Made by a program: the position numbers and the translations under genes. A DNA stretch of 63,991 nt, filler included, from Barthelona sp. PAP020 (Eukaryota), in NCBI GenBank assembly GCA_040182905.1. It is 39 parts of 39 records of this genome, joined end to end, with 100 filler letters (N's around TTAATTAATTAA, not from the genome) between each part and the next. Parts side by side here need not be neighbours in the genome. Positions count along the whole stretch, not along the records: positions 3,628 to 5,323 come from JARQWU010000930.1; 38 more parts are not named here. The stretch is one strand, 5' to 3'. Shown piece after piece: positions 1,109 through 55,258 of this stretch. The notes below the pieces were generated by a model. That model saw nothing but the letters and a program-made list of their open reading frames with translations. It did not search any database and was not told where the DNA came from. Each line of letters starts with the position of its first letter. Position 1 is the stretch's first letter.

Positions 1109-1344
1109 TTTTGATCACTTTTGTATATGGTCCTTTTATTAGTTTTACCTCATCGATCTTTTTTTATTAGCTTAAGATAAAATGGTATGTTGGTTTTTTT
1201 TTTCAAAAATATGTGTAATTTGGTCTTTTTATCAAACAAGTATATTCATTTAGAACATAAAATGCTCATTTAAATAAATTTCTATCAATGCTTGAAGATG
1301 AAGTGGAATTTAAGAAAGTGAAGCTAATAATTAAATAGTTTAGC

Positions 1345-1525
1345 TTTTATTAGATATTTATGAGGTATGAGTTGTTCAGTGAACAACGAAACGAGTTAGC
1401 TTAAGGTTTGGGAAAGAACTCACGTGGATTCAGATGCCCAAGTAACTTAAAAAATTGGACAAGTGACATTTTATGACCTCTTTATATCTCCAATAAATTC
1501 CGTTCATTGAGCATGAACTTCCACA
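1345..1525 (-). repeat. Repeat family B copy
   Basis: Near-identical to 5424-5523, 24588-24684 and 34840-35045; contains the GTTGTTCAnTGAACAAC palindrome. Confidence 0.9.
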
Positions 1526-1596
1526 CTAGTGTAAAAATAAGGAACAAATTTATTGTTCTTGCTTTTTGTTTTTAACCAAACTAAAATTTCAAAATT

Positions 1597-3627: not shown

Positions 3628-3723
3628 ACCAAAACAGCAAAGATACCATGGAGTAATTTCCCCAACCCCAGTTAGTAAATATAAATTAAAGCCTTTAATT
3701 TTGCCCTTTCGTCTAACGTGAAA
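3628..3723 (-). repeat. tRNA-downstream modules C1+C2
   Basis: TTTCACGTTAGACGAAAGGGC...ACTAACTGGGGTTGGGG..., near-identical to 17860-17968. Confidence 0.9.
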
Positions 3724-3737
3724 CTATTCAATGTTGC

Positions 3738-3750
3738 AGACTCGATCCTC
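3738..3750 (-). promoter_or_regulatory. Extra downstream B-box-like motif GAGGATCGAGTCT
   Basis: Fits GWTCRANNC; 26 nt 3' of tRNA-Asn. Confidence 0.75.
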
Positions 3751-3776
3751 TTTCCCCATTTTGGGAAGACAAAACT

Positions 3777-3849
3777 CGGTTCCGATGGGGCTCGAACCCA
3801 TGACCTTTGGATTAACAGTCCAATGCACTACCGACTGTGCTACGGAACC
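3777..3849 (-). tRNA. tRNA-Asn(GTT)
   Basis: GGTTCCG/CGGAACC acceptor stem, TTGGA-CTGTTAA-TCCAA anticodon arm, GGTTCGAG T-loop. Confidence 0.97.
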
Positions 3850-4083
3850 TCACGAATAACAAAAATAATGATACTTTTATAAAATTAAGAAATCTAAATA
3901 GTTTAATAAAATGGACAATTTAACAATTTAAAAATAAATTCCAGACATCTTTAAGACAATAAATATCTAATTGTATTAAACAAATTACTGTTTTCTTATT
4001 TCCAGCTCAAAAAGCAAAGAGTATATTAGTGAATATAGGAGAACAATAATTATTTAGTTGATGATTTTTAAAAATTAATTAAT

Positions 4084-4380
4084 TTGGTCAAGTTTTGAAA
4101 CAAAATTATTAATTTTCAAAGAAAGAGCAACAAAGAAAACTCATTTCTTTAAATCGCAGCCATAGAAAACGTAAGGCTGCAATTGAATCTTGGTCATCAA
4201 GTATGAAAATTTTGAAAAATTATCCATCCCTTTTTTCTATATTTTTGCAAAACCAAAATTTTAAATTTTATATTTTACCTGGGAAAATCTAAAGTTTGCA
4301 ACAGATCAATTGGACCTCGAAAGCTTTTAACCAAATAAACACCATTCCTTATTATTCACTAATACACATCTTCTTGGCCT
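4084..4380 (-). repeat. Repeat family A, diverged near-full copy, 234 nt upstream of tRNA-Asn
   Basis: Aligns by eye along its length with 21707-22018. Confidence 0.85.
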
Positions 4381-4527
4381 AGAGTTGAAATGGATAGGTG
4401 AAGGCAAAGTGATTCATTGTAAAAATAATTCTTCGAAGGAATAGAAATAAAGACCTGTTATTTATTTATCATTTGAGATGCTGTTTTCAATTTTTGGGAA
4501 GTTTGGTATCATTAAAAAAAAAAATGA

Positions 4528-4602
4528 GTTCACAAGCCATTTATTTTTGGCGAATCGAAAATTTCCGATTCTTCCTTTTTCCCTCAAGGTACAGAACTTT
4601 TT
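4528..4602 (+). repeat. Repeat family D (part shared with 40884-40959)
   Basis: About 75 nt near-identical to the reverse complement of 40884-40959. Confidence 0.85.
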
Positions 4603-5086
4603 CTTAACCTACCCCAAATTTTTCACCTGTTACGGTGAATGCATGAAAACTTGCACAATTAAAATTAATTTTAAAAAAATATCGGAGCGTTAAGCTCTTT
4701 TGAGCAATTAGTAATGCAATATTTCACACCCTGCATTGGGCATAGTTCTCCTATGACAGCCTATGAAAGAATAGGTCTCAAAAAGAGAGGTTCCTTTCTC
4801 GAACGCTGGACCCCCGAAAAGAATAAAGATTAAGGTTTATTATTTATTAGTCAACTAAGTTTTCCCAGTCTCTGATTTGGGAAAGTTCTGCAAAAGGTTC
4901 GTACAAGAAGAAAAATAAAATATCTGAAAAATAAGTTATCATTCTATTCTAATTTATAGTTTCTTATTCCAAGTATTAATCCCCAGTTGACTTGAGGAAT
5001 GACACAGATTTCCAAGGTTTGATTTTGGATTTTGCAATGGAAATATAGTAAATATGTAAATGCAAAGTGCCACTATTTGACTAATT

Positions 5087-5323
5087 CTAATTCGTTTCAA
5101 CTTGTTTCTTGCCATTATCATCTTCATATTCAATTTCAATGATAGGTTCTGTTCTTTCCAAATGAATTTTTTCTGTTTCGTATTCATCCTCATCATCCTC
5201 ACTGTCAAAATCGATATCATCATCACCCATATCATCATCAACAACAAAGGGTAAGTCATTGAGATCGAATACTGGTTCTTTTTCTTCCTCTAAATCCTCA
5301 ATTTCCATTTGATCAACTGATTG
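5087..5323 (-). CDS. Acidic C-terminal fragment, possibly Mak16
   Basis: D/E-rich tract followed by IEIEYE; 5' end cut by the contig. Confidence 0.4.
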   Translation of the reverse strand, partial: QSVDQMEIEDLEEEKEPVFDLNDLPFVVDDDMGDDDIDFDSEDDEDEYETEKIHLERTEPIIEIEYEDDNGKKQVETN

Positions 5324-5423
5324 NNNNNNNNNNNNNNNNNNNNNNNNNNNNNNNNNNNNNNNNNNNNTTAATTAATTAANNNNNNNNNNNNNNNNNNNNN
5401 NNNNNNNNNNNNNNNNNNNNNNN

Positions 5424-5523
5424 TACTTGGGCATCTGAATCCACGTGAGTTTTTTCCCAAACCTTAAGCTAACTCGTTTCGTTGTTCACTGAACAACTCA
5501 TACCTCATAAATATCTAATAAAT
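5424..5523 (+). repeat. Repeat family B copy
   Basis: TACTTGGGCATCTGAATCCACGTGAG...AATATCTAATAAA. Confidence 0.9.
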
Positions 5524-5737
5524 TAAAATAAATTAAAATAAATTTTCTTTTAAATTGGTGTCAAAAAAAAAAAAAAGCATTTCACACAAAAATTTGAAGC
5601 ACATTTATTTTTTTAAGGAAAATAAATTTAACACATGAAAAGGGAATTGGGAAAAAAAAAAAAGGGGAGGGGGGATGGGAAAATGGAGATACTGCTTAAA
5701 ATCTCTTTTAATCTTTTTTTAATAAGCACCAATTGAC

Positions 5738-6679
5738 ATGAAAGTTTTATTAATTTATTACAGTACCACAGGAAATACCGATTTCATTGCGAAAGAAATC
5801 AGAAAAATCATGATAAAAAAAAATCATGAAGTTGACCTTTTCAATTTTAGGGCTGAAAATCGAAAAATTCTTCAAGGAAAATCCATTGATTATGAACTAT
5901 GGAAAAATTACGAATTATTTGGTTTTCTATCACCAACTTGGGGTTTTCAGCCTGTTGACTTTTTTGATAAATTTATTAAGTCAATTCCTGATGAAGTTTT
6001 CATTGAAAAATATTTCTTTAGTGTAGCGTTACATGCTGGAAACCCAGGTAGAACTAATAAAGACATCTTCTTTTCCATTATGAACAAAAATATGGGTTCT
6101 AAATTTGTAGGACAAACTCATGTTTTTGGACCTTCTAATTTTATTCAAGGAGGAAGACTGGAAGAAAATAGATATAAATATGTTTGGTCAAGGAAGCATT
6201 TCAGACATTTGCCTGATTTTGTGCAAAAAATATTTGAAAACATTGATAACAATAATATTATTGATGGAAAAATGGATGGTTTATTCAGTGGATTGTTTGG
6301 AAAAATTATTCCTAGAAGTCTGATGGGAGGTAGCATTAGATTTAGTCCTGAAACTTGTACTGGTTGTCAACGTTGTGTGAAATATTGTCCAACTCAAGCT
6401 ATTAAGTCAATTAAGAAAGACGAAAATGGTACTCTTATTATTGACTATGATGATAACATTTGCATTGGATGTAGTGGATGTGTGCAATATTGTCCCACTC
6501 ATTCTTTAAATATTGGTCGTTCTGTAGGCAAAGAGAGATATTATTTCAAGAAGAACATCGTTGTTGACACTGACTTCGATCCTTATTTTGTTAGAAATGA
6601 CCGTGCCAGTGAAATATTTGGCGATCTTGATACGAAAGAGGAAATTGCAAAGGAAAATGTTTCAGATGAAGAATTTTGA
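5738..6679 (+). CDS. EFR1-type flavodoxin / 2x[4Fe-4S] ferredoxin fusion
   Basis: N-terminal YYSTTGNT flavodoxin loop; CTGCQRCVKYCP and CIGCSGCVQYCP motifs. Confidence 0.9.
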   Translation: MKVLLIYYSTTGNTDFIAKEIRKIMIKKNHEVDLFNFRAENRKILQGKSIDYELWKNYELFGFLSPTWGFQPVDFFDKFIKSIPDEVFIEKYFFSVALHAGNPGRTNKDIFFSIMNKNMGSKFVGQTHVFGPSNFIQGGRLEENRYKYVWSRKHFRHLPDFVQKIFENIDNNNIIDGKMDGLFSGLFGKIIPRSLMGGSIRFSPETCTGCQRCVKYCPTQAIKSIKKDENGTLIIDYDDNICIGCSGCVQYCPTHSLNIGRSVGKERYYFKKNIVVDTDFDPYFVRNDRASEIFGDLDTKEEIAKENVSDEEF

Positions 6680-6940
6680 TTGTTTTCAACTTTGTGAATG
6701 TGAACTTGGAAATAAACATTGAATTGGGTGGGATATTTTTTTTTGTCAAGCTGAAAAGAATCAAGGTAAAAACTCAAAAGCCTGATGGAATTGCTGGAAA
6801 GAAATGTCAAACTGATTATTTGGCTTTGAAAAAAAAAAAAAATTAATTTTCCTTTACATCTTTAAACTTTTACATTTTAAGGACACACAAAACAATCTCA
6901 GCCCAGACACAGTTTAGGCAACATAAAAAATCTAACAGAA

Positions 6941-7114
6941 CTACCTAAAAATGTTTTTATTCCGTAAACTTCTACGAGCATTGTTCAAGTCTCTTTCAAT
7001 TAGACTCTTTTCATACTGGAATCTACGATCTGTTTCCAAACGACTTTGTTGAATCTCCTCATCAATATCACGATCCCTCCTTTTTTCCTCTTCATATCTT
7101 CTTTGCTTCTCCGC
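6941..7114 (-). CDS. Coiled-coil protein, 3' fragment
   Basis: Open frame AEKQRRYEEEKRRDRDIDEEIQQ...KNIFR* running from the contig end. Confidence 0.55.
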   Translation of the reverse strand, partial: AEKQRRYEEEKRRDRDIDEEIQQSRLETDRRFQYEKSLIERDLNNARRSLRNKNIFR

Positions 7115-7216
7115 ANNNNNNNNNNNNNNNNNNNNNNNNNNNNNNNNNNNNNNNNNNNNTTAATTAATTAANNNNNNNNNNNNNNNNNNNNNNNNNNNNN
7201 NNNNNNNNNNNNNNNG

Positions 7217-8869
7217 GAAGATCTTGATAATATTGTTACAATAACGTTAACGGAAACAGATACGTGTATTTTATTTAACATGCCTAGTATTGCATATTCT
7301 GTGCAAAACGAAGAGCTCTCTAGAGAAGTTATTGCAGCAAACGATAGATATACTTCACAAAGATCAAAATATGCCGAAACTGGTGGTGACTTAGTCACTG
7401 AAATGGCTATTCAAACATTTAAACCACCAAATAAAACCAAATCAACTTTAACCCATAGAACTGCATTTAAATCTGCAAATATTCAAGTATCTCCTGCAGA
7501 CTTGTATGAATTCGAAAACAAAGATATCTCTAATTTCCTAGAAAGTGACACTTTACCTTCAAATGAAAAAGATGAGAATCCTATGCAAGGGAAAACCTTA
7601 TTATTCTTTGAAAAGGTCATTTCAACAAATCTTCATGCTAATTTATTGAGAAATATGTTTATATTTGAGACTCATTATCTAAACTCCAGTGGTGAAGTCG
7701 TTTCCACTTTAAAAGCTCAACATATTTTGTCTATCTCCAGTAAGCGAGTTCCTGGCGTTAGTTCTGATTTATCTGTTGTTGGAATCAAATGTCACCCTGT
7801 AAACCCTTTGATCTTTGCTGTTGCATATGGTCATCTCGAGTATGATGGTATTTATCACCCAGGATTCATTACATTATGGCATTTTACTAATTTAATGGTA
7901 CCGGCTGGTGTTATTGAAGTGCCTGCAACACCAACTGCAATTGTATGGTCTAAACTATCAATGAATACTTTAGCTGTTGGGTTAAGAAATGGAGATACAT
8001 ATTTCCTCGATTGTTCTGCTTCACCAATATCAATTATTTCTTCAACTAATTTTGATAGTGGTAGACACCTAGCTGCAATTTGGGCTATGGATTTTGTTGA
8101 TGCTTATGGACCGTCTGGTCAAATTGATGAAGGCTTGGTAACTGCTGGTGTTGATGGGCAAGTTCGTCTTCATATGCCTCAACATTCTCGTGTTTCTTCT
8201 TTGATGAAGTTAAAGAATGTCAGAAATACTGTGAGAGCTGAGCCAGTTACAGAACCATTTATTACTCGTCATGCTATGGCTTTATCTTTAGATTTTAATC
8301 CTGATGATACGTTGAACTATATTGTAGGTACTGCAGGTGGTCCAATTATCAGATGTTCACGAACCTATAGTGAACAGTATCTTCAACTATATCAAGGTCA
8401 TTCTGAAGCTGTTTATCAAACACGTTATTCTCCACATGCAAGCAACGTTTTTCTTTCATGTTCTGAAGATTGGACTATACGTGTGTGGTCTGAAGAATCT
8501 GCGGAACCTTTAATGACTCTGTTTGTACCAACTAGAAAAGAGGCCATATATGATGTTGCGTGGTGTCCATTTAAGTCAACTGCTTTGATTGGAGCAGGTG
8601 GAGTAAACAATGATATTTCGGTGGAATTGTGGGATTTAGCAAAAAGTACTGCTTCTCCTATGGATACTCTTTCTTTGGAGGGGGGAAATGTCACTAGATT
8701 AGAATTTTCAAAAAAATATCCATTTTTTATTGCTGGAACACAAGATGGCAGCATTCATTTTGTCAAAGTTCGAGGAATTGAGGAATATACCCCAACTGAA
8801 GAAAATAAAAATGAACAAGCCAAGCTTCTCACAAACACTTTGCACAGTGTGACTCAAAGTTTTGATTAA
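7217..8869 (+). CDS. DNAI4: Axonemal dynein intermediate chain, WDR78/IC138-like (5' partial)
   Basis: Frame is open to the contig start (TITLTETDT); motifs FAVAYG, YIVGTAGGPIIRCSRTYSEQYL and FLSCSEDWTIRVW. Confidence 0.85.
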   Translation, partial: EDLDNIVTITLTETDTCILFNMPSIAYSVQNEELSREVIAANDRYTSQRSKYAETGGDLVTEMAIQTFKPPNKTKSTLTHRTAFKSANIQVSPADLYEFENKDISNFLESDTLPSNEKDENPMQGKTLLFFEKVISTNLHANLLRNMFIFETHYLNSSGEVVSTLKAQHILSISSKRVPGVSSDLSVVGIKCHPVNPLIFAVAYGHLEYDGIYHPGFITLWHFTNLMVPAGVIEVPATPTAIVWSKLSMNTLAVGLRNGDTYFLDCSASPISIISSTNFDSGRHLAAIWAMDFVDAYGPSGQIDEGLVTAGVDGQVRLHMPQHSRVSSLMKLKNVRNTVRAEPVTEPFITRHAMALSLDFNPDDTLNYIVGTAGGPIIRCSRTYSEQYLQLYQGHSEAVYQTRYSPHASNVFLSCSEDWTIRVWSEESAEPLMTLFVPTRKEAIYDVAWCPFKSTALIGAGGVNNDISVELWDLAKSTASPMDTLSLEGGNVTRLEFSKKYPFFIAGTQDGSIHFVKVRGIEEYTPTEENKNEQAKLLTNTLHSVTQSFD

Positions 8870-9002
8870 ATAGTGCGTTCTTTGTAAATCTTGTGTTTTA
8901 TTNNNNNNNNNNNNNNNNNNNNNNNNNNNNNNNNNNNNNNNNNNNNTTAATTAATTAANNNNNNNNNNNNNNNNNNNNNNNNNNNNNNNNNNNNNNNNNN
9001 NN

Positions 9003-9100
9003 GCAGCCACTCATTTTCTGTGGCTGAGATTTAATGAAATGAGTTTTCTCTGATTACTTTTTCTTTGTAAATAAATATAGTTGTTTCACAACTTGACCAA
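9003..9100 (+). repeat. Repeat family A 3' end, 237 nt upstream of tRNA-Phe
   Basis: GCAGCCACTCATTTTCTGTGGCTG...CACAACTTGACCAA. Confidence 0.9.
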
Positions 9101-9337
9101 AATATTGAAATTGAATTAACTACAATCTTATTGTTTTTCAATATAATTAATTTTTTATTCATAAATAATTAATTTAAATAAAAATTTATTCTTAATTAAT
9201 ATTAAAATATAATATGATTAATAAAAATCTCTTTAATTTCCCTATCAAAATTTGAAATAACTCAGATGTCTAAACATAATAAATCAAAAACAATTCAACC
9301 CATTCATGTTGTTTCCAAACTTTAGCTTTTTTTCAAC

Positions 9338-9412
9338 GCGTCTTTAGCTCAGTTGGTAGTTAGCGTTAGACTGAAGATCTAAAGGTCCCGAGTTCAATCC
9401 TCGGAAGACGCA
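9338..9412 (+). tRNA. tRNA-Phe(GAA)
   Basis: GCGTCTT/AAGACGC acceptor stem, TTAGA-CTGAAGA-TCTAA anticodon arm, followed by a T5 terminator. Confidence 0.96.
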
Positions 9413-9437
9413 ATTTTTCTAAAGAATTCTTTGAGAT

Positions 9438-9450
9438 GAGGATCGAGTCT
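9438..9450 (+). promoter_or_regulatory. Extra downstream B-box-like motif GAGGATCGAGTCT
   Basis: 25 nt 3' of tRNA-Phe. Confidence 0.75.
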
Positions 9451-9464
9451 GGCAATTAGGGAAT

Positions 9465-9662
9465 TTCAACAATGGAGAAGACAATTCACGTTAGACGAAA
9501 GGGCAAAATTAAAGGCTTTAATTTATATTTAGGTGTGTTATTGAAATGAGTAGTTGGGAAAGCCTTGAATTTGAATCCTGGCTGTTTGAAATGACTTAGT
9601 TCCGATTGAAAGATTGGACGATATTGAATCCCTAAAAAAAAGAAATGACTTCAATAACTTTG
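9465..9662 (+). repeat. tRNA-downstream modules (TTCAACAAT stub, C1, body of C3)
   Basis: Matches 3675-3723, 13957-14132 and 17682-17827. Confidence 0.9.
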
Positions 9663-9897
9663 GATGGAAAATTTGATTAAGGAAATTGAGACAATGGTTG
9701 AAATTTTGGGAAAATTTCTTTTGTAATCTTTCAAGATTCTTTATCAGCCAGTAACATTAGATTCTTCTTTGTCTTAAGCTCAACTAGTTGTTTTATTATT
9801 TGATAAATTCTGAAATACGAGAAATTTTGCTTGATTCAAATTCTGGCGCATTTCTTCACGCTTTTCTTTTTCCCTCCTTGTGAAATGCCCGCTGCGC

Positions 9898-10153
9898 TTC
9901 ACAATAATACTAAATGTTTATAAAGACCTTTTTTGTTCTCGGTTAGAGTTTGGGGGTACTTGCAGCTGGGTCGTTTTGCATGGATGGTTCAGAACACTCT
10001 TAAAAAGAAAGAAATACTTTTGGTTTAGATGGGACGGGTCTCTAAATAAAAGTGTAATCCTATCCTTTGTCCCCCTTTTGATTCACTTTAAATGTCTCCA
10101 CTTACGTTCTCTTTGTAACACTTTGATATTCTTTGCTTTGTTGACCTGTTTTA
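9898..10153 (+). repeat. Module C4 copy
   Basis: TTCACAATAATACTAAATGTTTATAAAG...CGGTTAGAGTTTGGGGGTACTTGC; matches 21082-21184 and 44175-44574. Confidence 0.85.
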
Positions 10154-10767
10154 ACAAACTCCACACTTAACAACCAAAACGAAAGGGATTAAAAAGGGAA
10201 GGTGCAACTTAAATCTTTAGAATGTATGTCATAAGATGAAAACATTCCTTTCATCATTAACCACTACATTTTTATCAACCATTGACTATCCACAATCAAT
10301 TATACAACCTGAAAACATTTCTCCAATTTGTTTGATACTCCTTTCATCAATTCTAAGAGAAAGCAAAGCAAAAATAGATTTCTTCTTTATTTCTTCCTTT
10401 TACTCCATATACATGAACTCAAGCAGAAAATAACAACCATTTAGTCAAATATTTGCTGCAATTTTTCAATCATGTTTGATTGAAAATTCAAACCATTTTA
10501 TTTGCATCTTTCAACACTGCCAACATGATTCTCTTTACTTTTGTTAATATAAGTTTTTTTATATCATTTTTCAATTCAATGGATAACACATTGCTTTTAT
10601 TGATTTTGATTTGTTACACTTTATATGATTTTTCAAGAAAACTAATTTAACAAATTTTTCTTTTTGNNNNNNNNNNNNNNNNNNNNNNNNNNNNNNNNNN
10701 NNNNNNNNNNTTAATTAATTAANNNNNNNNNNNNNNNNNNNNNNNNNNNNNNNNNNNNNNNNNNNNT

Positions 10768-12399
10768 TTGAATAATTTTTCAAGTGGAAAATCTTTCTCC
10801 ATTTCAGTACTCCCTGATGATGTTTCCAAGACAATAATCAAGCATATAGTTAATATGGGAAAAAATCTGCAATCAACCCAAAATCTACAAATGAATGAAC
10901 AGTCCAAAATGGACACTTTAGAACGTAAGAATAAGATGGAAAAGGTACAGCATAAAGTCAATGAAGTTGAAAATAGGCGTTTAAATTCAGATTTTGACAT
11001 TCCCATTATCGATTATAAGGCACTAAATATTTCAACAGTATTAGGATCAGGTGGATATGGTACAGTTAGCAAAGGAACATATCAACATGCTGATATTGCT
11101 GTTGAGTTAACATTTGATTCAACTGAAGAAAAAGTCAAAGATGAATGCATTGCAACGGCATTTCCTCATCAATTTATATGTAAAGTGTATGGTATCATGT
11201 AGGGAAATCGATCGTACAATTCAGTGGGGTTTTGTGATGGAATATTGTTCATACACACTGAGTAGAAGGATGCATGAAATGACTGTTCTTGAGAGATTAA
11301 TTAGTATGTTACAACTGGCTTCTGCACTTGAGTTTTGTCATAACAAGGGTGTGATTCATCGAGATGTCAATCCAAAGAATGTTTTGATCAGAAATGATGG
11401 AACAACTGCTCTTTGTAATTTTGGGCTTGTTCGTTGTTTTGAAAGAAATAGTAGGTTATCTACTGTGGGAACGATTTGTTATATGCCTCCTGAATTGGTA
11501 AACAATGAAATTTTTGCTCATCCTGGCATTGATTGCTGGGCATTTGCAACAACTTACTTTGAAGTGATGACAATGTTTAAGCCTTTTAAAGGAATTTCTG
11601 ATCGTACAAGTCCTCTAAAATTAAAGAAGGGTAAATTGCCTTTTAAACGTGAAGAATTAGAATTAGCCATTGGATATAATTTTATATCTCAGTGTTTTTA
11701 TCCTGACCCTAATAAAAGACCAATGTTTTCAGAAATAGTTGAGTATCTCGATGGGTTGATTGTGGATTTGAAAAAATGTGTTTCCCTCATTATTCGTGAT
11801 TATTTTAAGAAACATAATTTGGAAGAAAATAACGGAAAAGAAAAGAAAAGAGTTGAGTTCACTATTTGTGATTCTTATGAGAAACATAAATTGTATGAAG
11901 TTGTTGTCCCGGATAATTTTTCCAAATATTGCAATACAGAGACAATACACCATTATGTACGAAATGGAAATTTACAAGCAGTCAAACAATGGATAAAGAC
12001 TGGAAATGAAGGAGAAACGGCTCTTTGGGAGGCTTCTTCTTATGGGAACAGTGCTATTGTTAAGTTTGTGTTGGATTTTGAGGTTGATGTGAACTTTTGT
12101 ATGAATACTAGTGTCTCTTCATTATTTGCTGGTTGTGAAAATCAGCATAGTTATGTGTTTCGAACTCTTTTAGACAAAGAAACTGATACTAACTATTGTA
12201 AGATCAATGGAGTTTCTTCGTTGTGTATCAGTTGTTCAAAGGGATATTTGAATATTGCTAAAATGCTCTTAGATCACGGGGTTGATATCAGTTTGTGCAA
12301 TAATGATGGTGTTTCTCCATTGTTTGTTGGTTGTTACAATGGTCATTTTGATATTGCCAAAATACTTCTTGATTATGGAGCTGACGTTGATTTATGTAG
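10768..12399 (+). pseudogene. Frameshifted TKL-like kinase + ankyrin-repeat gene
   Basis: GSGGYGTV and VYGI lie in one frame, GFVMEY/HRD in another (shift near 11197); VAVK appears as IAVE and DFG as NFG; intact-looking paralog at 58200-59624. Confidence 0.8.
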
Positions 12400-13956: not shown

Positions 13957-14132
13957 TTCACGTTAGGTACAAGAAAAGGTATACGAAAGCTTTTATATAC
14001 GGTGTGTTATTGAAATGAGAAGTTGGGAAAGCCTTGAATTTGAATCCTGGCTGTTTGAAATGACTTAGTTCTGATTGAAAGATTGAACGATATTGAATCC
14101 CTAAAAAAAAAGAAATGACTTCAATAACTTTG
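13957..14132 (+). repeat. Module C3 copy
   Basis: TTCACGTTAGGTACAAGAAAAGGTATACG...GAATCCCTAAAA; matches 17682-17827 and 29263-29361. Confidence 0.9.
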
Positions 14133-17681: not shown

Positions 17682-17968
17682 GGGATTCAATATCGTCCAA
17701 TCTTTCAATCAGAACTAAGTCATTTCAAACAGCCAGGATTCAAATTCAAGGCTTTCCCAACTACTCATTTCAATAACACACCGTATATAAAAGCTTTCGT
17801 ATACTCTTTCTTGTACCTAACGTGAAATTTGTAAGCATATGCTATTGTTGTCGTGTGAATTCTGAATCGGTTGACCAAAACAGCAAAGATACCATGGAGT
17901 AATTTCCCCAACCCCAGTTAGTAAATATTAATTAAAGCCTTTAATTTTGCCCTTTCGTCTAACGTGAA
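17682..17968 (-). repeat. tRNA-downstream module stack C1-C2-(TTCACACGAC stub)-C3
   Basis: Three TTCA-headed junctions, at 17968, 17859 and 17826. Confidence 0.9.
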
Positions 17969-17974
17969 CTTTGG

Positions 17975-17987
17975 AGACTCGATCCTA
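17975..17987 (-). promoter_or_regulatory. Extra downstream B-box-like motif TAGGATCGAGTCT
   Basis: 25 nt 3' of tRNA-Ala. Confidence 0.75.
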
Positions 17988-18012: not shown

Positions 18013-18085
18013 TGGACTATCAGGGCGTCGATCCCCGTGCCTCCCGCATGCTAAGCGGGTGCTCTACCAGGTGAGCTAATAGCCC
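18013..18085 (-). tRNA. tRNA-Ala(AGC)
   Basis: G3:U70 pair, CCCGC-TTAGCAT-GCGGG anticodon arm, GATCGA T-loop as in eukaryotic tRNA-Ala, T-run terminator. Confidence 0.97.
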
Positions 18086-18695: not shown

Positions 18696-19133
18696 TTATA
18701 TATTCACATCAAACAATGAAAAACTATTCACAACTATGAAAATTTGAGAAAATTCCCTTAATAATGAGTCAATTCTTTCCGTTTCCATTTTATCTACCAT
18801 AAAATTTAAGTCATAAAAAGTGATATAAGTAAAATCATCTTCTAATCTGTTTATTCTTTCCGGGATCAAATAAAATGCATCGTCAACCTTTGAAATTTTC
18901 GGTTTAATATTAATATTATTGTTATATACGCCTTTAATATCAACAATATCAACATTACATTCAACATGAAATGGTTCATCAAGATATTCTTTCATATTAT
19001 TGATGTTATTGATGAATAATTTGCCAAACAGAACAATATTGGGAAAATTAACCATTTTAAAATGGCATAACACAAATGAATTTTCGTTTGAGTCAAAGGA
19101 GGAAGTTAGGAATTCAATAATTTGAATTTTCAT
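18696..19133 (-). CDS. Hypothetical protein
   Basis: 145-aa ATG ORF with globular composition. Confidence 0.5.
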   Translation of the reverse strand: MKIQIIEFLTSSFDSNENSFVLCHFKMVNFPNIVLFGKLFINNINNMKEYLDEPFHVECNVDIVDIKGVYNNNINIKPKISKVDDAFYLIPERINRLEDDFTYITFYDLNFMVDKMETERIDSLLREFSQIFIVVNSFSLFDVNI

Positions 19134-19389
19134 TTGAAAGTTTTCACAAAATCGTCAATAATTGGTTACTTACCTTTCAGTAAAAAAAGAAGCTTCAAAC
19201 AATTTTTCCTTTTTGCAAACACAAATCTTCTCCTTTTTTCAATTTTTTATCTTAATTTGCTCAACAATTCACAAAAAAAAAAAAAAAANNNNNNNNNNNN
19301 NNNNNNNNNNNNNNNNNNNNNNNNNNNNNNNNTTAATTAATTAANNNNNNNNNNNNNNNNNNNNNNNNNNNNNNNNNNNNNNNNNNNNC

Positions 19390-21081: not shown

Positions 21082-21184
21082 CGACAATAATAATAAATGT
21101 TTATAAAGATCTTTATTGTTCTCGGTTAGAGTTTGGGGGTACTTGCAACTGAGTCGTTTTGCGTGGATGGTTCAGAACACTCTT
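21082..21184 (+). repeat. Module C4 copy
   Basis: CGACAATAATAATAAATGTTTATAAAGATC...GGTTCAGAACACTCTT. Confidence 0.9.
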
Positions 21185-21706
21185 TCATGATGCAAAACAG
21201 AAAATGATTATAAAAGCTTTTACAAGGATTATAGGATGAGAAGGTTGGCTAGTTAGTGTTTGTCAATTCTTGATCTGAGTTTAGTTCGTGAACTGAATGC
21301 CCTTTATAAAAAAAAAGAATCAACCTTTAGTTGATCTGCCATATTTAAAATTTTGATTTAATTTGATAACATATTCCAATTTTGAAATTCCAACTTGCTC
21401 AGAAATGGCGGGAAAGTTTTTCCTGCACCGGAAAACATTCTTTTCTCTTTTCCCGCAAAGTTCTTGCTCCAGGCTGAAACTTTGTAGGATTAATATCTGA
21501 TACTGGTTGATCTAGTGTAGGGAAACAAGCTAGCATATTGTGGGTTTTGCTTGACTCACACAAACGCATGCATGTTTATGGTTGAGACTGCGATTCTTCA
21601 CAGTTGAATGTGATTATTCTGTTCCTTCCCACGCATCAATTTATGAATTTTTTACATCGTTTCAAAGATAAAACAGAGTTAGTCTTTGCTACTTAATATC
21701 TTTAAG

Positions 21707-22018
21707 TTATTTCCAAGCCAAGAAGCACTGTGCGTATAAGTGAATAAAAAAGAATGGTGTTTATTTGGTTAAAGGCTTTCGAGGGCCGATTGATCTCTTG
21801 AAAAACATAGATTTTCTAAGGTAAAGTTTAAACTTTAAAATTTTGCTTTTGCAAAAATAGAAAAAAATAGGAATGAAGAATTTTTCCAAAATTTTCATAC
21901 TTGATAAGCAAGATTCAATTGCAGCCACTCATTTTCTGTGGCTGACATTTAATGAAATGAGTTTTCTCTGATCACTTTTTCTTTGTAAATAAATAAAGTT
22001 GTTTCACAACTTGACCAA
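21707..22018 (+). mobile_element. Repeat family A, full-length (~310 bp) non-coding element
   Basis: Reference copy with defined ends TTATTTCCAAGCC...CTTGACCAA; about 10 full or partial copies in the window. Confidence 0.75.
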
Positions 22019-22362
22019 AATTTTCAAATAGTTTGAAGATGTCCCATCATAAATTTTTAATATGAATAGAAATCACAAATTGTAGAGATCAAAGAAACCA
22101 TGTTTATTATCATTGTCGCACTTTGTTTGAAATAAATCTGCTTCATGAAAAAGAAACAAGAAACTAACTTGTTTTAAGTTTGAATAAGTTTCAATTATCT
22201 GGTAAAACTCCTTAAATGAACCAAATTCTTTAATTTCTATTGTCTTAAAACAGTACAGAGACTGGAGTGAAAAATAGAAGACAACTGTAAATTTTTAGAA
22301 TTGTTTTCACCCCCCCAACAACCTCAGTAAATTTGAAGATAATTACTCTTTTTTCCAGAGGA

Positions 22363-24456: not shown

Positions 24457-24684
24457 AAAGTTTAAACTTTACCTTAGAAAATCTAAAGTTTTTCAACAGA
24501 TCAATCGGGCCTCGAAAGCCTTTAACCAAATAAACACTATTCTTTTTTATTCACTTATACGCACAGTGCTTCTTGGCTTGGAAATAATTGGGCATCTGAA
24601 TCCACGTAAGTTTTTTCCCAAACCTTAAGCTAACTCGTTTCGTTGTTCATTGAACAACTCATACCTCATAAATATCTAATAAAA
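24457..24684. repeat. Family A (minus) abutting family B (plus)
   Basis: Junction GGAAATAA-TTGGGCATCTG near 24588. Confidence 0.9.
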
Positions 24685-27811: not shown

Positions 27812-28817
27812 TTAAAATTTTCTTTCTTGTGGGATTATTAGCTTTATATGCAGGAGTATTTTGGTTAGTTCTTCCTTTGCGTCTTCTTTCGGTGAAATTT
27901 TTGTTGTTGCCAAATTAATTTTATATCCAACTCTTTTTTTTATCAAATGAAATGTTGAAATTGACAGGAAATGAGTCACAATCACGATGAACTTTTTGAA
28001 TCTCCTGAAAGCTACTAATATCAAAAGAAGTAAATATAACCATTACTTGACATAACCATACCAATAGGTGTCAAGAAATGAAGTGCCCACACTTCACCAC
28101 CAATATTGAATGTGTGAAGAAGTAATCCATCACCCGTATTTCAGAACTTCAATTTGTTTGAACAATCACCAACCGCAACTATTGGTCCATTAGGATGGAA
28201 TTCAACAGCTTTAACTTCATGTTCATGATTGAAAACACAAATTACAGACAAGCTCTCTGATCATATCAATTTAACAGTATAATCATTGCAGTTAAGCCAT
28301 TTTGAATGTGACGATAATTGAATCTCCCAAATACTTTGGGAATGAATCTTTTTGTTTTGAACAACTTCAAGACTATCCAAGTTCCATTTGTGAAGATACC
28401 CATTGTTGTTTATTGAATATAAAAACGAAGAACAATGCGAAAAACAAGCCCCAAAAAGAAAAATGTCATAATACAAAACATCCAAATAATAAAAATCATG
28501 TTTAAGGTCATAAGTACAAATGGAATAATCATTGGAACAAGTTGCTAAATATTTTCCATCCGATGAAATAGCAACACATACACAAAGTCAGTATACTCTC
28601 GCAAAATATGCTTCAGTTGATGTGTTTCTGTTTCAAAAACATACGCTGTTTTCATTGAATAAATGACAAAATGCTTCCCATTTGGTGAATATTTACAATC
28701 ATAAATATAATTGTTAATTGCTCCTTCAATTGCTGTTACATTCTTTTTATCAATTTTTAAAGGGAGATTATTTCTGATTTTCATCATCAAGACCTTTTTT
28801 TTTGTTTCACTGTACAT
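27812..28817 (-). pseudogene. WD40 pseudogene, paralog of 1891-3063
   Basis: Collinear similarity (KIHSQSIWEIQLS; EFHP; KF*NTGDGLLLHTF; LHFLTP; FQEIQKVH) broken by stops and frameshifts. Confidence 0.85.
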
Positions 28818-29153
28818 GCAAAAAGATCTTTTAAAAATATTTTCTTTTTTTTGAAATTATTTGTAAATTCTTATATAGTTTAATTTCAGTTTTTAAAAAA
28901 TTGTAATGTGTTCATGAAGGAGTAATGTTAGTATTATAATTTAAATTATTAATAATGTTTGAGATATTTAGTTGTGTATCCGTTTTTATGTTCAAATATT
29001 TGATGTTTTGATGCTAAGAGAATTTTGATATTTAAAATATATGAAATCTTTTTATTTTTTGATAAAATTTGAATGACTGTAAAAAAATTCCATACAAAAA
29101 AAATTCATTTAATTTCCTTTTTTAAAATAAAAAGGTATTTGTTTTCTCCTGTA

Positions 29154-29244
29154 ACCAACGTGGTGTAATTAGTAGCACACTTGTCGTTTATTGAATTCAT
29201 TGCTTCGTTATTGAGGGGTCCTCGTGCAATTCGAGGCGTTGGTA
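29154..29244 (+). ncRNA. Atypical tRNA-like gene (91 nt), anticodon undetermined
   Basis: Perfect acceptor stem ACCAACG/CGTTGGT+A, D stem GTGT/GCAC, T stem CCTCG/CGAGG and T8 terminator; 36-nt irregular anticodon region. Confidence 0.75.
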
Positions 29245-29250: not shown

Positions 29251-29361
29251 TTCACTCGACATTTCACGTTAGGTACAAGAAAAGGTATACGAAAGCTTTT
29301 ATATACGGTGTGTTATTGAAATGAGTAGTTGGGAAAGCCTTGAATTTGAATCCTGGCTGTT
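29251..29361 (+). repeat. TTCACTCGACA stub plus module C3, directly after the tRNA-like gene
   Basis: Near-identical to the C4' head (40673) and to C3 (13957). Confidence 0.9.
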
Positions 29362-29778: not shown

Positions 29779-31017
29779 TTATTGCAAAGATATAGAATTA
29801 ACCCCTCTGGGAATCATACCACCAGAGTAATGACCACGTTTCTTTTTGGTTTTGGCTGCTTTCCAAGATTTTCCTCGTGTAGGTCTCATTTCCATTTCAG
29901 CTCTTTTATCAAATTCTGAAATCTTGTGGTCCCGTCTGAAATGATGCGTAAAATTGACGTCGTCAACATTGAATCTTGTCCTAAATTGTCCTGGTGCACG
30001 TTTTTTGTTGGGATTATATTTATTTGCTCTATCATCATCATTATGTCTATCATTAGCTTCTTTATTGAAGTTTTTCTTCTCAGACTCACTCTCTGATTCA
30101 CTCTCTGATTCTTCCTTTTCAGGCTCACTTTCAGAATCATCTTTTTCTTCTTTCTTCTCTTCTTCTTTTTCAGATTCGCTCTCAGATTCAGACTCAGATT
30201 CATTTTCGGACTCGGATTCAGATTCAGATTCAGATTCTTCCTTCTCTTCTTCCTTTTCAGATTCGCTTTCGGATTCGGATTCGGACTCAGACTCAGACTC
30301 TTCCTTTTCTTCTTCCTTTTCTGATTCACTTTCACTTTCGGATTCAGATGCAGACTCTTCCTTCTCTTCCTCCTTTTCTGATTCACTTTCGGATTCAGAC
30401 TCAGATTCAGACTCAGATTCTTCCTTCTCAGATTCAGACTCAGATTCTTCCTTCTCAGATTCAGACTCAGATTCTTCCTTCTCGGATTCCTTCTCTTCTT
30501 CCTTTTCTGATTCACTTTCACTTTCGGATTCGGACTCTGATTCAGATTCAGATTCAGATTCAGACTCTTCCTTCTTTTCAGATTCACTTTCGGATTCAGA
30601 CTCAGACTCAGATTCTTCCTTCTCGGATTCCTCAGATTCAGACTCTTCCTTTTCTTCTTCCTTTTCAGATTCACTTTCAGACTCAGATTCGGATTCAGAC
30701 TCTTCCTTCTCTTCCTCCTTTTCAGATTCACTTTCGGATTCAGACTCAGACTCAGATTCTTCCTTCTCGGATTCCTTCTCAGATTCATTTTCGGATTCTG
30801 ATTCTGATTCTGATTCTGATTCAGATTCAGACTCTTCCTTTTCTTCTTCCTTTTCAGATTCACTTTCAGACTCAGATTCGGATTCAGACTCTTCCTTCTC
30901 TTCTTCCTTTTCTGATTCACTTTCGGACTCGGATTCAGACTCAGATTCAGATTCAGATTCAGATTCAGATTCTTCCTTTTCTTCTTCCTTTTCACTTTCA
31001 GATTCAGACTCGGACTC
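29779..31017 (-). CDS. NOLC1: Nopp140/Srp40 nucleolar phosphoprotein (5' partial); this frame is missing from the ORF track
   Basis: (SE)n/EKEEEKEE repeats ending in [33 protein letters not shown], the SRP40 C-terminal domain. Confidence 0.9.
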
Positions 31018-31119
31018 ANNNNNNNNNNNNNNNNNNNNNNNNNNNNNNNNNNNNNNNNNNNNTTAATTAATTAANNNNNNNNNNNNNNNNNNNNNNNNNN
31101 NNNNNNNNNNNNNNNNNNG

Positions 31120-32440: not shown

Positions 32441-32769
32441 GATGATTTGTTGAACAAAATGATAAAATCAAAATGGGTGGAAAAAAAAAATCATTTTATT
32501 TGCATGCGGAAAAATATGAAATTTCCAAAAAAAAACATATATGAACAAGCACATTTTACAAAAATTGTGTCAAGAAAACTATATTTGAAAAGCTTAGAAA
32601 TACTTGGATAATTCGATGCAAAGATCAATGACACGGTTGGAATAACCAGCTTCATTATCATACCAAGNNNNNNNNNNNNNNNNNNNNNNNNNNNNNNNNN
32701 NNNNNNNNNNNTTAATTAATTAANNNNNNNNNNNNNNNNNNNNNNNNNNNNNNNNNNNNNNNNNNNNAT

Positions 32770-34679: not shown

Positions 34680-35241
34680 TTTCCAAGCCAAAAGACACTG
34701 AGTGTCTAAGTGAACGAAGAAGAATTATTTCCAAGCCAAGAAGCACTGTGTGTATGAGTGAATTAAAAGAATACTGTTTATTTGGTTAAAGGCTTTCGAG
34801 GCCCGATTGATCTGTTGAACTATAGATTTTTTAAGGTAATGTGGAAGTTCCTGCTCAATGAACAAAATTTATTGGAGATATTAAGAGGTCATCAAATATC
34901 ACTTCCATTATTAATTGTTGCTTGACCACCTTTAGGTCCAATTCTTTAAGTTACTTGGGCATCTGAATCCACGTGAGTTTTTCCCAAACCTTAAGCTAAC
35001 TCGTTTCGTTGTTCACTGAACAACTCATACCTCAAAAATATCTAAGAAAGTTTAAACTTTAAAATTTTGCTTTTGCAAAAATCAAAAGAATGGGAATGGA
35101 AAATTTTTCCAAAATTTTCATACTTGATGATTAAGATTCAATTGCAGCCCCTCATTTTCTGTGGTTGAGATTTAATGAAATGAGTTTTTTCTGATTGCTT
35201 TCTCTTTGTAAATAAATATAGTTGTTTCACAACTAGACCAA
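34680..35241 (+). mobile_element. Family A copy with a duplicated head and family B inserted (34840-35045)
   Basis: A sequence is split at AAGGTAA/AGTTTAAAC by a B copy. Confidence 0.85.
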
Positions 35242-35651
35242 TAGAATTCATTTGGTGAAAAACTTTTGAGGACTCACATATCTGCTTTCATTTCACTTCA
35301 ATGTAAACACAAGATGAGGCGATATATATCATTTTTCCAATTTAATCGTAAAAATTGTTTCATTCCTTTTAAGGCTTGTTTCTAAAATTTACTGGATTGA
35401 GACTTCTGCGTTTACTTTCTTTTCAACGAAATACAGTTGTTTCAAAAATGGACCAATTTCTTCTTAGTCATTTGGTTCTTTGAATAATTTTCTGAAACCT
35501 CAAACTTTCCTTTGTCTTTGTCTTTGCAGTTGCAATATTCAACAGATTGAAAGAAACAGATAGCCTCTTCAACAATCTTCTTTGTTTTTCATTGACTCAA
35601 AATTTTGTGAAAAATAATGAAAATCTTAAAAATTTACACATCGATAATAAT

Positions 35652-39176: not shown

Positions 39177-39337
39177 NNNNNNNNNNNNNNNNNNNNNNNN
39201 NNNNNNNNNNNNNNNNNNNNTTAATTAATTAANNNNNNNNNNNNNNNNNNNNNNNNNNNNNNNNNNNNNNNNNNNNATATAAGAGGGAAAGAAAGATCAC
39301 GCTGCTAACATCTCAACCACAACCCCCCACACCTAAG

Positions 39338-39470
39338 AGTTGGATATAAACTGTTCAGAATTTATTGTTGAAATTTATAAACATTTATTATTATTGTCGT
39401 GTGAAAAAGCTTTTATTAAATGTTTATTATTTTGTCGAGTGAATGAGCCAGTAGATGATGTGTTGTTGAA
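39338..39470 (-). repeat. Stack of four TTCA-headed module stubs downstream of tRNA-Glu
   Basis: TTCA at 39470, 39443, 39405 and 39372; the last three match the heads of C4', C4 and C7. Confidence 0.85.
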
Positions 39471-39507: not shown

Positions 39508-39520
39508 AAACTCGATCCTC
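39508..39520 (-). promoter_or_regulatory. Extra downstream B-box-like motif GAGGATCGAGTTT
   Basis: 28 nt 3' of tRNA-Glu; one mismatch to the other copies. Confidence 0.7.
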
Positions 39521-39548: not shown

Positions 39549-39621
39549 CTCCGATACCGGGATTCGAACCCGGTTCTGCGGGGTGAAAACCCACTATCCT
39601 AACCAAGTAGACTATATCGGA
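39549..39621 (-). tRNA. tRNA-Glu(TTC)
   Basis: TCCGATA/TATCGGA acceptor stem, GTGGG-TTTTCAC-CCCGC anticodon arm, GGTTCGAATCC. Confidence 0.96.
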
Positions 39622-40294: not shown

Positions 40295-40783
40295 GAGAAC
40301 AATCAAAAATTTACCAGTAGGAAAAAAGAAGGATTGGCATTCTTATATTCAGATAATCGCCCCATCCACACCTGAAGAATTTCTTTTTTTTAAAGAGTGC
40401 TCCAAACCATCCATGCAAAACGACTCAGTTGCAAGCACCACCAAACTCTAACCGAGAACAATAAAGATCTTTATAAACATTTATTATTATTGTTGTGTGA
40501 CAGCTCTATATCACTATTTTGTTTAAGTTTCGCCCTGGGAAAGAACCTTCCTTTTTTTTTATATAGGAGAGTTCTGAACCAATCTACGCACAACAGACCA
40601 GTGAAAAGTAACCCAAACTCTAACCTTGAACAGTAAAAGCTTTTATCAAATGTTTATTATTTTGTCGAGTGAATTTCGTCTAACGTGAAGTGTTCGTAGC
40701 AAAGCGGACGGATTTCACCCAAAAGACAAAATAAACATTGTTCTAGGTTCTATTCTTGCACTTCTGATTGTTAAATATGATCC
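40295..40783 (-). repeat. Module stack C6 - C1 stub - C4' - C4
   Basis: Segments match 43618-43710, 3700-3723, 43875-43972 and 21082-21184. Confidence 0.85.
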
Positions 40784-40883: not shown

Positions 40884-40959
40884 GGAAAAGTTCCGTACCT
40901 CGAGGGAAAAAGGAAGAATCGGAAAATTTCGATTCGCCAAAAATAATAGGCTTGTGAAC
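40884..40959 (-). repeat. Repeat family D copy
   Basis: Reverse complement of 4528-4602. Confidence 0.85.
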
Positions 40960-41159
40960 AACCCTCATTTTTTTTTTTTTTTTTTTTTTTCAATGTTTTC
41001 CAATAAAGTTTTCATGAGTGTTCTTTGTAAAAGAAGGTCAATTCTCTTCAGCATTTTGATATGTAACATTCACTAATTTAAAGAAATACAATATCCCTTT
41101 GGTGCATTAAACAGAAAGAATTAATTGATTGAATCAAAAAGAAAAAAAATAGTTCACAT

Positions 41160-53432: not shown

Positions 53433-53536
53433 TTTTNNNNNNNNNNNNNNNNNNNNNNNNNNNNNNNNNNNNNNNNNNNNTTAATTAATTAANNNNNNNN
53501 NNNNNNNNNNNNNNNNNNNNNNNNNNNNNNNNNNNN

Positions 53537-55099: not shown

Positions 55100-55135
55100 A
55101 GTTGGATATAAACTGTTCAGAATTTATTGTTGAAA
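55100..55135 (-). repeat. Module C7 head
   Basis: TTTCAACAATAAATTCTGAACAGTTTATATCCAACT, identical to 39338-39373. Confidence 0.9.
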
Positions 55136-55147: not shown

Positions 55148-55160
55148 AGACTCGATCCTC
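55148..55160 (-). promoter_or_regulatory. Extra downstream B-box-like motif GAGGATCGAGTCT
   Basis: 26 nt 3' of tRNA-Asp. Confidence 0.75.
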
Positions 55161-55186: not shown

Positions 55187-55258
55187 CTCTCTCGCGGGGA
55201 ATCGAACCCCGGTCCCAAGCGTGACAGGCTTGAATGATGACCACTACACTACGAAAGA
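55187..55258 (-). tRNA. tRNA-Asp(GTC)
   Basis: TCTTTCG/CGAGAGA acceptor stem, CAAGC-CTGTCAC-GCTTG anticodon arm, GGTTCGATTCC. Confidence 0.96.

What the first reader, a model, noticed from the sequence alone, without database searches (positions are those of the whole stretch)
3628..4380. Stereotyped tRNA-anchored architecture: upstream element A - tRNA - extra B box - TTCA modules (candidate Pol III-targeted mobile-element system)
Seen: five different tRNA genes on five unrelated contigs (Asn 3777, Phe 9338, Ala 18013, Glu 39549, Asp 55187) share one layout. Each has family A 180-280 nt upstream, a 13-nt motif 25-28 nt downstream, and TTCA-headed repeats starting 44-78 nt downstream, always in tRNA-sense orientation. 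Known: position- and orientation-specific integration near tRNA genes occurs for yeast Ty1/Ty3 and for Dictyostelium TRE5 (upstream) and TRE3 (downstream), the TRE5/Ty3 cases via Pol III factors. Inference: this is a two-sided tRNA-targeting system, probably independently evolved, in a gene-dense anaerobic protist. The mobilising enzyme is not in this window.
Basis: partly seen in the sequence, partly recalled or inferred. Interest (0 to 1): 0.88.

Follow-up and report, generated by a model that had tools for sequence, protein, structure and literature searches.

The report
tRNA-anchored repeat stacks in barthelonid protist
In a free-living anaerobic flagellate, five different tRNA genes each carry the same short motif at a fixed distance downstream, likely a second RNA-polymerase-III factor site, followed by stacks of truncated repeats that likely mark a mobile element aimed there; this layout was previously described only in social amoebae, and the enzyme responsible was not found.

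Summary
The window is 40 short contigs of an AT-rich eukaryote whose CCT4 groups with Barthelona (Metamonada). All five canonical tRNA genes carry a 13-nt B-box-like motif 49-52 nt past the internal B box (5 hits, 0.5 expected, none elsewhere). Downstream lie same-strand stacks of repeats with a fixed (T)TC head and variable distal truncation. So the first head lies 16-27 nt past the most distal B box in 5 of 6 loci. Flanks are not collinear. The upstream arm is weaker. Family A is inverted at Glu, a 52-nt stub at Ala, absent at the sixth gene and present on tRNA-free contigs, and its enrichment fades once non-coding space is controlled. No RT, integrase, transposase, recombinase or RepHel ORF was found. 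Best reading: B-box (TFIIIC)-anchored downstream insertion of non-autonomous elements, convergent with Dictyostelium TRE3/Skipper-2 and its external B box. The end structures resemble Helitron-like elements more than TREs, but the class is unproven.

The parts
3777..3849 (-). tRNA-Asn(GTT)
   Evidence: 76 bits
3738..3750 (-). external B-box-like motif, 50 nt past the internal B box
3628..3722 (-). family B1 module, TTCA head at 3722, runs off the contig end
3996..4059 (+). degenerate family A stub, inverted relative to the main copy
   Evidence: about 72% identity, E 2e-4
4072..4383 (-). family A, complete diverged copy, GACCAA end facing the tRNA
9003..9101 (+). family A right end (contig starts inside it)
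9338..9412 (+). tRNA-Phe(GAA)
9438..9450 (+). external B-box-like motif
9465..9662 (+). stack: single-copy 20-nt TTCA stub, 47-nt B1 stub, then B2 body lacking its head
9898..10153 (+). family C copy, same strand, about 490 nt past the tRNA
18013..18085 (-). tRNA-Ala(AGC)
17975..17987 (-). external B-box-like motif (1 mismatch)
17682..17968 (-). stack: B1 (about 110 nt), 33-nt C-type stub, B2 to the contig end
18349..18402 (-). family A left-end stub only (about 52 nt)
29154..29244 (+). sixth, atypical tRNA-like gene (perfect acceptor and T stems, predicted 19-nt intron, G at T-loop position 55); no external motif
   Evidence: absent
29251..29361 (+). stack starting 7 nt after that gene: 11-nt C2 stub, then B2
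39549..39621 (-). tRNA-Glu(TTC)
39508..39520 (-). external motif with the last consensus C changed to T
39277..39470 (-). stack: single-copy 27-nt stub, 38-nt C2 stub, 33-nt C stub, family E to the contig end
39801..40125 (+). family A, complete, inverted relative to the other tRNA loci
40329..40689 (-). stack upstream of tRNA-Glu, not anchored on a visible tRNA: 16-nt B1 stub, 172-nt C2, C; preceded by C2-body sequence
55187..55258 (-). tRNA-Asp(GTC)
55148..55160 (-). external B-box-like motif
55100..55134 (-). family E head to the contig end
55533..55853 (-). family A, complete, flanked by a 7-nt direct repeat
13957..14132 (+). B2 copy with no tRNA on the contig; follows a diverged C-family body fragment
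21082..21253 (+). C stub followed by a further TTCA head (21184) carrying the AAAG/CTTT palindrome
21703..22019 (+). family A, complete, no tRNA on the contig
34723..35243 (+). family A interrupted by family D (about 34840-35048) and preceded by an older 48-nt A stub; no tRNA on the contig

Best explanation
Five tRNA genes of this barthelonid-like protist carry a second, untranscribed B-box-like motif about 50 nt past the internal one, which likely binds TFIIIC, and non-coding mobile elements, likely non-autonomous rolling-circle (Helitron-like) ones, are predicted to insert in one orientation just beyond the most distal B box. Repeated insertion at that edge and into the first tens of bases of earlier copies would leave the observed stacks of short fixed-head stubs. 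The link to the B box would be tethering to the Pol III complex or exposure of single-stranded DNA at a fork paused there; neither is shown. Family A is a dispersed repeat that accumulates in the same intergenic space without a fixed position or orientation. Shown: motif, spacing, stacks, strand bias, non-collinear flanks. Inferred: TFIIIC binding, mobility, targeting, element class. I put B-box-anchored insertion by some mobile element at about 0.65, and the rolling-circle class on top of that at about 0.4.
For: The motif is specific to tRNA 3' flanks (5 of 5 hits) at 49-52 nt from the internal G53, and 4 of 5 copies match GWTCRANNC. T4-T7 runs lie between tRNA and motif, and the spacers on both sides of the motif differ per locus. 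The first head is 25, 24, 16, 47, 23 nt past the external box, and 27 nt past the internal box at the gene lacking one; the 47-nt outlier is the locus whose motif breaks consensus (n=1). B/C/E sequence is on 6 of 6 tRNA contigs against 4 of 17 others with >=300 nt non-coding run (p=0.002; 0.017 and 0.045 at stricter cut-offs). 13 of 20 curated heads are within 200 nt 3' of a tRNA, all sense. All 20 heads contain TC at the boundary, with T before it in 19 of 20; B, C, C2 and the 21184 head share an AAAG/CTTT palindrome about 30 nt in. Stacked 5' stubs of 31-85 nt, TC-or-TTC starts and TNAT targets are described for Fusarium FoHeli Helitron2 elements (PMC5148889, passages). Family D has a 7-bp hairpin (z -2.7, 2 of 200 shuffles) 17 nt before CTAA and sits inside family A with at most a 3-nt repeat. 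Family A ends in a stem-loop plus invariant GACCAA in 7 of 7 copies; Paramecium Helitron right ends are a short stem-loop plus CCAA (PMC13085455, section 14).
Against: No RepHel or any other mobility domain was found in 16 + 85 + 15 ORFs or fragments scanned. Only 1 of 7 head 70-mers folds better than shuffles (B1, z -2.5), so 5' hairpins are not general. The family A end hairpin shows no compensatory change and has z -0.45. Distal ends of B, C and E are not assembled. No headless remainder of an interrupted copy was convincingly found. Family A is flanked by AAT repeats in 3 of 5 complete copies and by a 7-nt repeat in one, which Helitrons should not make. The 9-nt B-box consensus alone is not enriched (24 seen, 27 expected). 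Seven of 20 heads are not tRNA-proximal. Two of the first heads (Phe, Glu) are single-copy and defined only by position. The contigs are short because they break in repeats, so tRNA genes without insertions are under-sampled. No paper found describes Pol III-anchored Helitrons.
Confidence: 0.4

Rival explanations
1. The heads are the 3' ends of a non-LTR retrotransposon that inserts by target-primed reverse transcription downstream of the distal B box, antisense to the tRNA. New, 5'-truncated copies land at the proximal site and form tandems.
For: One fixed and one variable end is the classic TPRT pattern (recalled). Dictyostelium TREs form TRE-TRE tandems at tRNA genes without inserting into each other (PMC5391098, passages), and TRE3 targets downstream of the internal or external B box (PMC5911963, passages). 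Family D ends in a short A-rich tail.
Against: There is no oligo(T) at the heads, whereas TREs end in poly(A) (PMC5006619, passages). Polarity is opposite to TRE3, which lies in tRNA sense. Stubs are as short as 11-16 nt and abut with 0-1 extra bases. No long TSD at the one resolvable empty/filled pair. No RT fragment.
Confidence: 0.22
2. No transposon enzyme is involved: replication forks stall at TFIIIC-bound tRNA loci, and template switching or ectopic repair between tRNA loci copies patches of flank from one locus to another.
For: Mosaic junctions such as the B1 head joined to the B2 body across a short TATAT overlap at Phe; no coding element is visible.
Against: Several distinct families share one precise head boundary. 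Copies are also found inside other repeats away from tRNAs. Most stub junctions show no microhomology with the interrupted sequence (read by eye).
Confidence: 0.13
3. Tyrosine-recombinase elements (Crypton- or DIRS-like) integrate through a short A/T-rich core near tRNA genes.
For: No terminal inverted repeats; family A is flanked by AAT in 3 of 5 complete copies and by 7 nt at Asp; AAT or AATT often precedes heads.
Against: A 3-nt repeat in 70% AT DNA is weak evidence. Variable distal truncation is not expected from conservative recombination (recalled). No recombinase ORF.
Confidence: 0.1
4. There is no targeting: repeats are purged from genes and survive in the little intergenic space, and a fragmented assembly enriches tRNA-plus-repeat contigs. 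The motif is only a host tRNA cis-element.
For: This explains family A well (p=0.088-0.12 after control). Contigs break in repeats (99-nt overlaps). Seven of 20 heads lie elsewhere.
Against: It does not explain one strand, one side and a 16-27 nt distance in 5 of 6 loci. By hand's 24,319 non-coding nt, six of about ten stacks starting within 110 nt sense-downstream of a tRNA has a chance of roughly 1e-9 (stacks were curated by eye).
Confidence: 0.1

Closest known systems
Dictyostelium tRNA-gene external B box with TRE3 non-LTR retrotransposons
   Same: A second B box 3' of most tRNA genes (about 41 bp downstream of 66% of genes, PMC3159450, passages); insertions downstream, measured from the internal or external box (PMC5911963, passages); tandem build-up; compact genome.
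   Different: Here the motif starts 25-28 nt downstream and has A at position 54; insertions lie closer (16-27 nt past the box); the tRNA-facing end is the fixed one; no poly(A) and no APE-RT ORF seen; the host is a metamonad, not an amoebozoan.
Skipper-2 LTR retrotransposons of dictyostelids
   Same: Insertion just downstream of tRNA genes (8-23 bp in D. discoideum, 7-133 bp in D. purpureum; PMC5006619, passages).
   Different: No TG...CA termini, no consistent 4-6 nt TSD, no integrase or chromodomain ORF.
Helitron2 FoHeli1/2 of Fusarium oxysporum and other non-canonical Helitrons
   Same: TC or TTC start after T, AT-rich target, several short 5' termini stacked head to tail (PMC5148889, passages); stem-loop plus CCAA or CTRR right ends in families A and D.
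   Different: No asymmetric terminal inverted repeat found; most heads lack a 5' hairpin; no RepHel seen; no tRNA-gene targeting appears in the FoHeli passages read.
Dada DNA transposons
   Same: DNA elements tied to tRNA and other small-RNA genes, also in a protist (PMC8869645, passages).
   Different: Dada inserts inside the gene by primary sequence, with TSDs; here the tRNA genes are intact and the repeats lie outside.

Membership tests
External B box (Dictyostelium type) | B-box consensus at a fixed distance 3' of many tRNA genes, beyond the terminator | tested here: met
   5 of 5 canonical tRNAs, 49-52 nt spacing, 4 of 5 match GWTCRANNC; absent at the sixth, atypical gene
External B box (Dictyostelium type) | Bound by TFIIIC | not testable with these tools
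   needs ChIP, footprinting or EMSA
TRE3 non-LTR retrotransposon | Position downstream of tRNA genes relative to the internal or external B box | tested here: met
   6 of 6 loci downstream; 16-27 nt in 5 of 6
TRE3 non-LTR retrotransposon | APE-RT-zinc finger ORF2 | tested here: inconclusive
   none in 116 ORFs or fragments of the window; the rest of the genome is not held
TRE3 non-LTR retrotransposon | tRNA-sense copy with variable 5' end proximal and fixed poly(A) end distal | tested here: not met
   the proximal end is the fixed one and the distal end varies; no A or T tail at heads
Skipper-2 / LTR retrotransposon | TG...CA LTR ends with 4-6 nt TSD | tested here: not met
   heads start (T)TC; family A ends TTTCC...GACCAA; a direct repeat over 3 nt in 1 of 5 complete A copies
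Helitron1 | 5' TC terminus inserted between A and T | tested here: not met
   TC in 20 of 20 heads but preceded by T in 19 of 20
Helitron1 | 3' hairpin followed by CTRR | tested here: inconclusive
   family D: hairpin z -2.7 and CTAA; family A: stem-loop plus CCAA without covariation; B/C/E ends unassembled
Helitron2 / FoHeli type | TC or TTC start after T; multiple stacked 5' termini | tested here: met
   compared with PMC5148889 passages
Helitron2 / FoHeli type | Asymmetric terminal inverted repeat of 12-16 nt and terminal hairpins | tested here: inconclusive
   none seen by eye between family A ends; 1 of 7 heads folds significantly; other right ends unknown
Helitron (any) | RepHel transposase in an autonomous partner | not testable with these tools
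   not in the window; no genome or reads held
tRNA-derived SINE | One tRNA-like head shared by all copies and transcribed into the body | tested here: not met
   five different intact isotypes (50-76 bits), each with its own T-run before the repeats
Entamoeba-type tRNA-STR arrays (features recalled) | Tandem tRNA units separated by short tandem repeats | tested here: not met
   no tandem array at any tRNA locus
Dada | Insertion inside the tRNA gene | tested here: not met
   the five canonical tRNA genes are uninterrupted

The most novel reading that the evidence does not exclude
A metamonad has independently evolved both a Dictyostelium-like external B box at its tRNA genes and a family of rolling-circle (HUH, Helitron-like) transposons that use the distal edge of the TFIIIC site as an orientation-specific landing pad. 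This would be a non-retroelement positioned by the Pol III machinery, outside fungi and amoebae.
Probability: 0.22. Interest if true: 0.85.

Novelty: new variant of a known kind. Interest (0 to 1): 0.58.

Why it matters
A 2018 review states that insertion downstream of tRNA genes is found only in dictyostelids, not in budding yeast (PMC5911963, passages). In my searches the external B box turned up only in Dictyostelium papers. A second lineage, in another eukaryotic supergroup, with both features would be a clean case of convergence in compact genomes. It would allow a test of what external B boxes are for: a decoy that keeps insertions off the gene, a boundary, or a fork barrier. If the enzyme is an HUH transposase, it would be a new route to safe-harbour, factor-guided integration.

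Tried and rejected
No whole genome is held. No sequencing run was listed for 3628-10666 ('none was listed', no evidence either way). The B1 head had 0 hits in viral contigs, and a family A word had 0 hits in metagenome contigs. A generic B-box-gap-motif pattern gave 33 metagenome loci. ARAGORN placed a tRNA over the match in 1 of 33 (L026, 54% GC), and none showed the repeats; treated as chance. No earlier scan findings were returned. Rfam gave only the five tRNAs above the gathering score, plus one weak sRNA hit at E 0.17, so family A is not a known SRP/RNase P-type RNA. Segmental duplication was rejected: the spacers between family A and the tRNA show no cross-homology beyond low-complexity hits. 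An inverted partner for family E at 44073-44160 scored 35 against a background of 32 and 30; rejected as evidence for TIRs. The apparently headless C at 44175 is better read as a variant head at the usual position, so it is no proof of nested insertion. An integron attC reading (GTTRRRY after the B heads, motif recalled) was rejected because no inverse core is present. The TTCA-N17-26-AAAG/CTTT scan gave 22 hits against 3.05 +/- 1.9 in 60 shuffles, but the pattern was built from the heads and the hits are multi-copy, so it is not independent support. The Atlas look-up of the orphan ORF near tRNA-Ala gave no result. Not Pfam-scanned: the ORFs at 28261-28856, 29779-31062, 31556-32467, 53485-55047 and 58152-59669, which read by eye as WD40, low-complexity, phospholipase B and ankyrin-kinase genes.

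Full report
Context. The window is 40 size-sorted contigs of about 0.4-1.7 kb joined by artificial spacers, about 30% GC, with ordinary eukaryotic genes and a flavodoxin/4Fe-4S protein. CCT4 has a 100% match among transcriptome proteins (P0001). Its closest named hit by identity is Barthelona sp. PCE at 60%. In a tree of 30 of the 120 listed proteins it pairs with Barthelona (98/96) and then with two TZLM isolates (100/99); branches are long and the outgroups mostly opisthokonts. I read the host as a barthelonid-like metamonad. Genomes of 10-34 Mb are reported for that clade. The main text of that paper has no occurrence of 'tRNA' or 'retro', and its searchable supplements none of 'Helitron', 'transposase' or 'reverse transcriptase'; one scanned supplement could not be searched (PMC11316075; passages, section 6, supplements).

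The motif. Five tRNA genes are confirmed. The 13-mer GAGGATCGAGTCT has exactly 5 matches at up to two mismatches, one 3' of each tRNA; 0 of 100 shuffles reach 5. Its core lies 50, 49, 49, 52 and 50 nt from the internal G53, beyond a T4-T7 run, with unrelated spacers on both sides. It is therefore a positioned host motif, not part of the repeats. Four of five copies fit the B-box consensus GWTCRANNC; the Glu copy does not. That 9-mer alone occurs at chance frequency (24 against 27), so the B-box identity rests on position plus precedent. Dictyostelium has external B boxes about 41 bp downstream of 66% of tRNA genes (PMC3159450, passages).

The downstream stacks. Homology among contigs defines families B1, B2, C/C2 and E, whose shared sequence starts abruptly at TTCA. 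Of 20 curated heads, all have TC at the boundary, 19 with a T before it; two are single-copy and defined by position only. Modules are cut distally at 11 to about 430 nt and abut the next head. Thirteen of 20 heads lie within 200 nt 3' of a tRNA, all on the tRNA strand. ARAGORN with introns finds a sixth, atypical tRNA-like gene at 29154-29244, missed by Rfam. It has no external motif, and its stack starts at +7. Measured from the most distal B box, first heads lie at 25, 24, 16, 47, 23 and 27 nt. B/C/E sequence is on 6 of 6 tRNA contigs against 4 of 17, 4 of 11, and (5 of 5 against) 2 of 6 control contigs at rising non-coding thresholds (p 0.002, 0.017, 0.045). Against this, seven heads lie elsewhere, mostly next to other repeat bodies. 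One of them (13957) is on a contig with no tRNA in 1.4 kb upstream; a lone B-box 9-mer lies 127 nt before it. Contigs break in repeats, so empty tRNA loci are under-sampled.

Family A. A non-coding repeat of about 310 nt on 9 of 40 contigs, with sharp ends and no visible TIR or LTR ends. It lies 180-275 nt upstream of five tRNAs. It is inverted at Glu, a stub at Ala, doubled in both orientations at Asn, absent at the sixth gene, and complete on two tRNA-free contigs. Controlling for non-coding space leaves p=0.018-0.12. It does not behave like TRE5 or DGLT-A, which keep narrow windows (PMC5006619 and PMC5911963, passages). Flanks are not collinear, so segmental duplication is excluded.

Mechanism. 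No RT, integrase, transposase, recombinase or RepHel domain appears in 16 + 85 + 15 translated ORFs and fragments. The class must be read from the ends. For rolling circle: (T)TC starts after T and stacked short stubs as in FoHeli 'multiple 5' termini' (PMC5148889, passages; HLE2 inserts between T and T, PMC11417382, passages). Family D has a significant hairpin before CTAA and is inserted into family A with at most a 3-nt repeat. Family A ends in a stem-loop plus CCAA, like Paramecium Helitrons (PMC13085455, passages and section 14). Against: 6 of 7 heads do not fold better than shuffles; the A hairpin has no covariation; AAT or 7-nt flanking repeats occur at A; and the polarity of the elements is unknown. 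A strand-biased insertion at paused forks is known for IS200/IS605 HUH elements (PMC5371812, passages); that tRNA genes pause forks is recalled. The TPRT rival fits the one-fixed-end pattern and TRE tandems (PMC5391098, passages) but needs the reverse of TRE3 polarity and no poly(A). Recombinase, enzyme-free template switching and no-targeting readings remain open at lower odds.

Novelty. tRNA-anchored insertion is a known kind. Downstream targeting was described as dictyostelid-only. Ten library searches listed no report of external B boxes or tRNA-flank elements in metamonads, nor of Pol III-anchored Helitrons. The nearest items were Helitron marks inside Arabidopsis tRNA-Cys clusters (PMC10701932, abstract and outline only), Dada (PMC8869645, passages), and cryptophyte PLVs with no tRNA genes near insertion sites (PMC12220804, passages). 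The library omits most subscription papers. Verdict: a real, probably unreported convergent variant, supported by six loci and sequence alone; the enzyme and the binding are unknown. Interest 0.58.

Noticed in passing
window 29154-29244 (+): Atypical tRNA-like gene: A1-T72 acceptor pair, perfect acceptor and T stems, T-loop with G at position 55, predicted 19-nt intron at non-canonical position 32/33 (called Thr-CGT by ARAGORN). It may be a real divergent tRNA, another Pol III RNA or a pseudogene.
   Followed up: partly
window 1329-1537, 5424-5522, 24585-24684, 34840-35048: Family D, a 200-240 nt repeat with a terminal hairpin and A-rich end; found inside, abutting or 55 nt from family A on three contigs.
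   Followed up: partly
window 42990-43972 (-): About 1 kb non-coding C2-family body with internal diverged duplications and a second old C-like head; the longest piece of a TTCA family in the window, with no ORF or Pfam hit.
   Followed up: partly
window 4514-4601 and 40886-40978: A further two-copy repeat of about 90 nt next to a poly(A/T) run.
   Followed up: no
window 5726-6679 (+): Flavodoxin plus 4Fe-4S dicluster protein, of a type common in anaerobic prokaryotes (recalled); possible lateral transfer.
   Followed up: no
window 11111-12399 (+) and 58200-59625 (-): Two paralogous protein kinase-ankyrin repeat genes; with several WD40 paralogues they point to expanded gene families.
   Followed up: no
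window 18696-19154 (-): Orphan ORF of about 145 aa upstream of tRNA-Ala with no Pfam hit.
   Followed up: partly
many contig ends, e.g. 47043-47142 with 54899-54998: Contig ends share about 99-100 nt overlaps and often coincide with repeat boundaries, so the assembly breaks at these repeats.
   Followed up: yes
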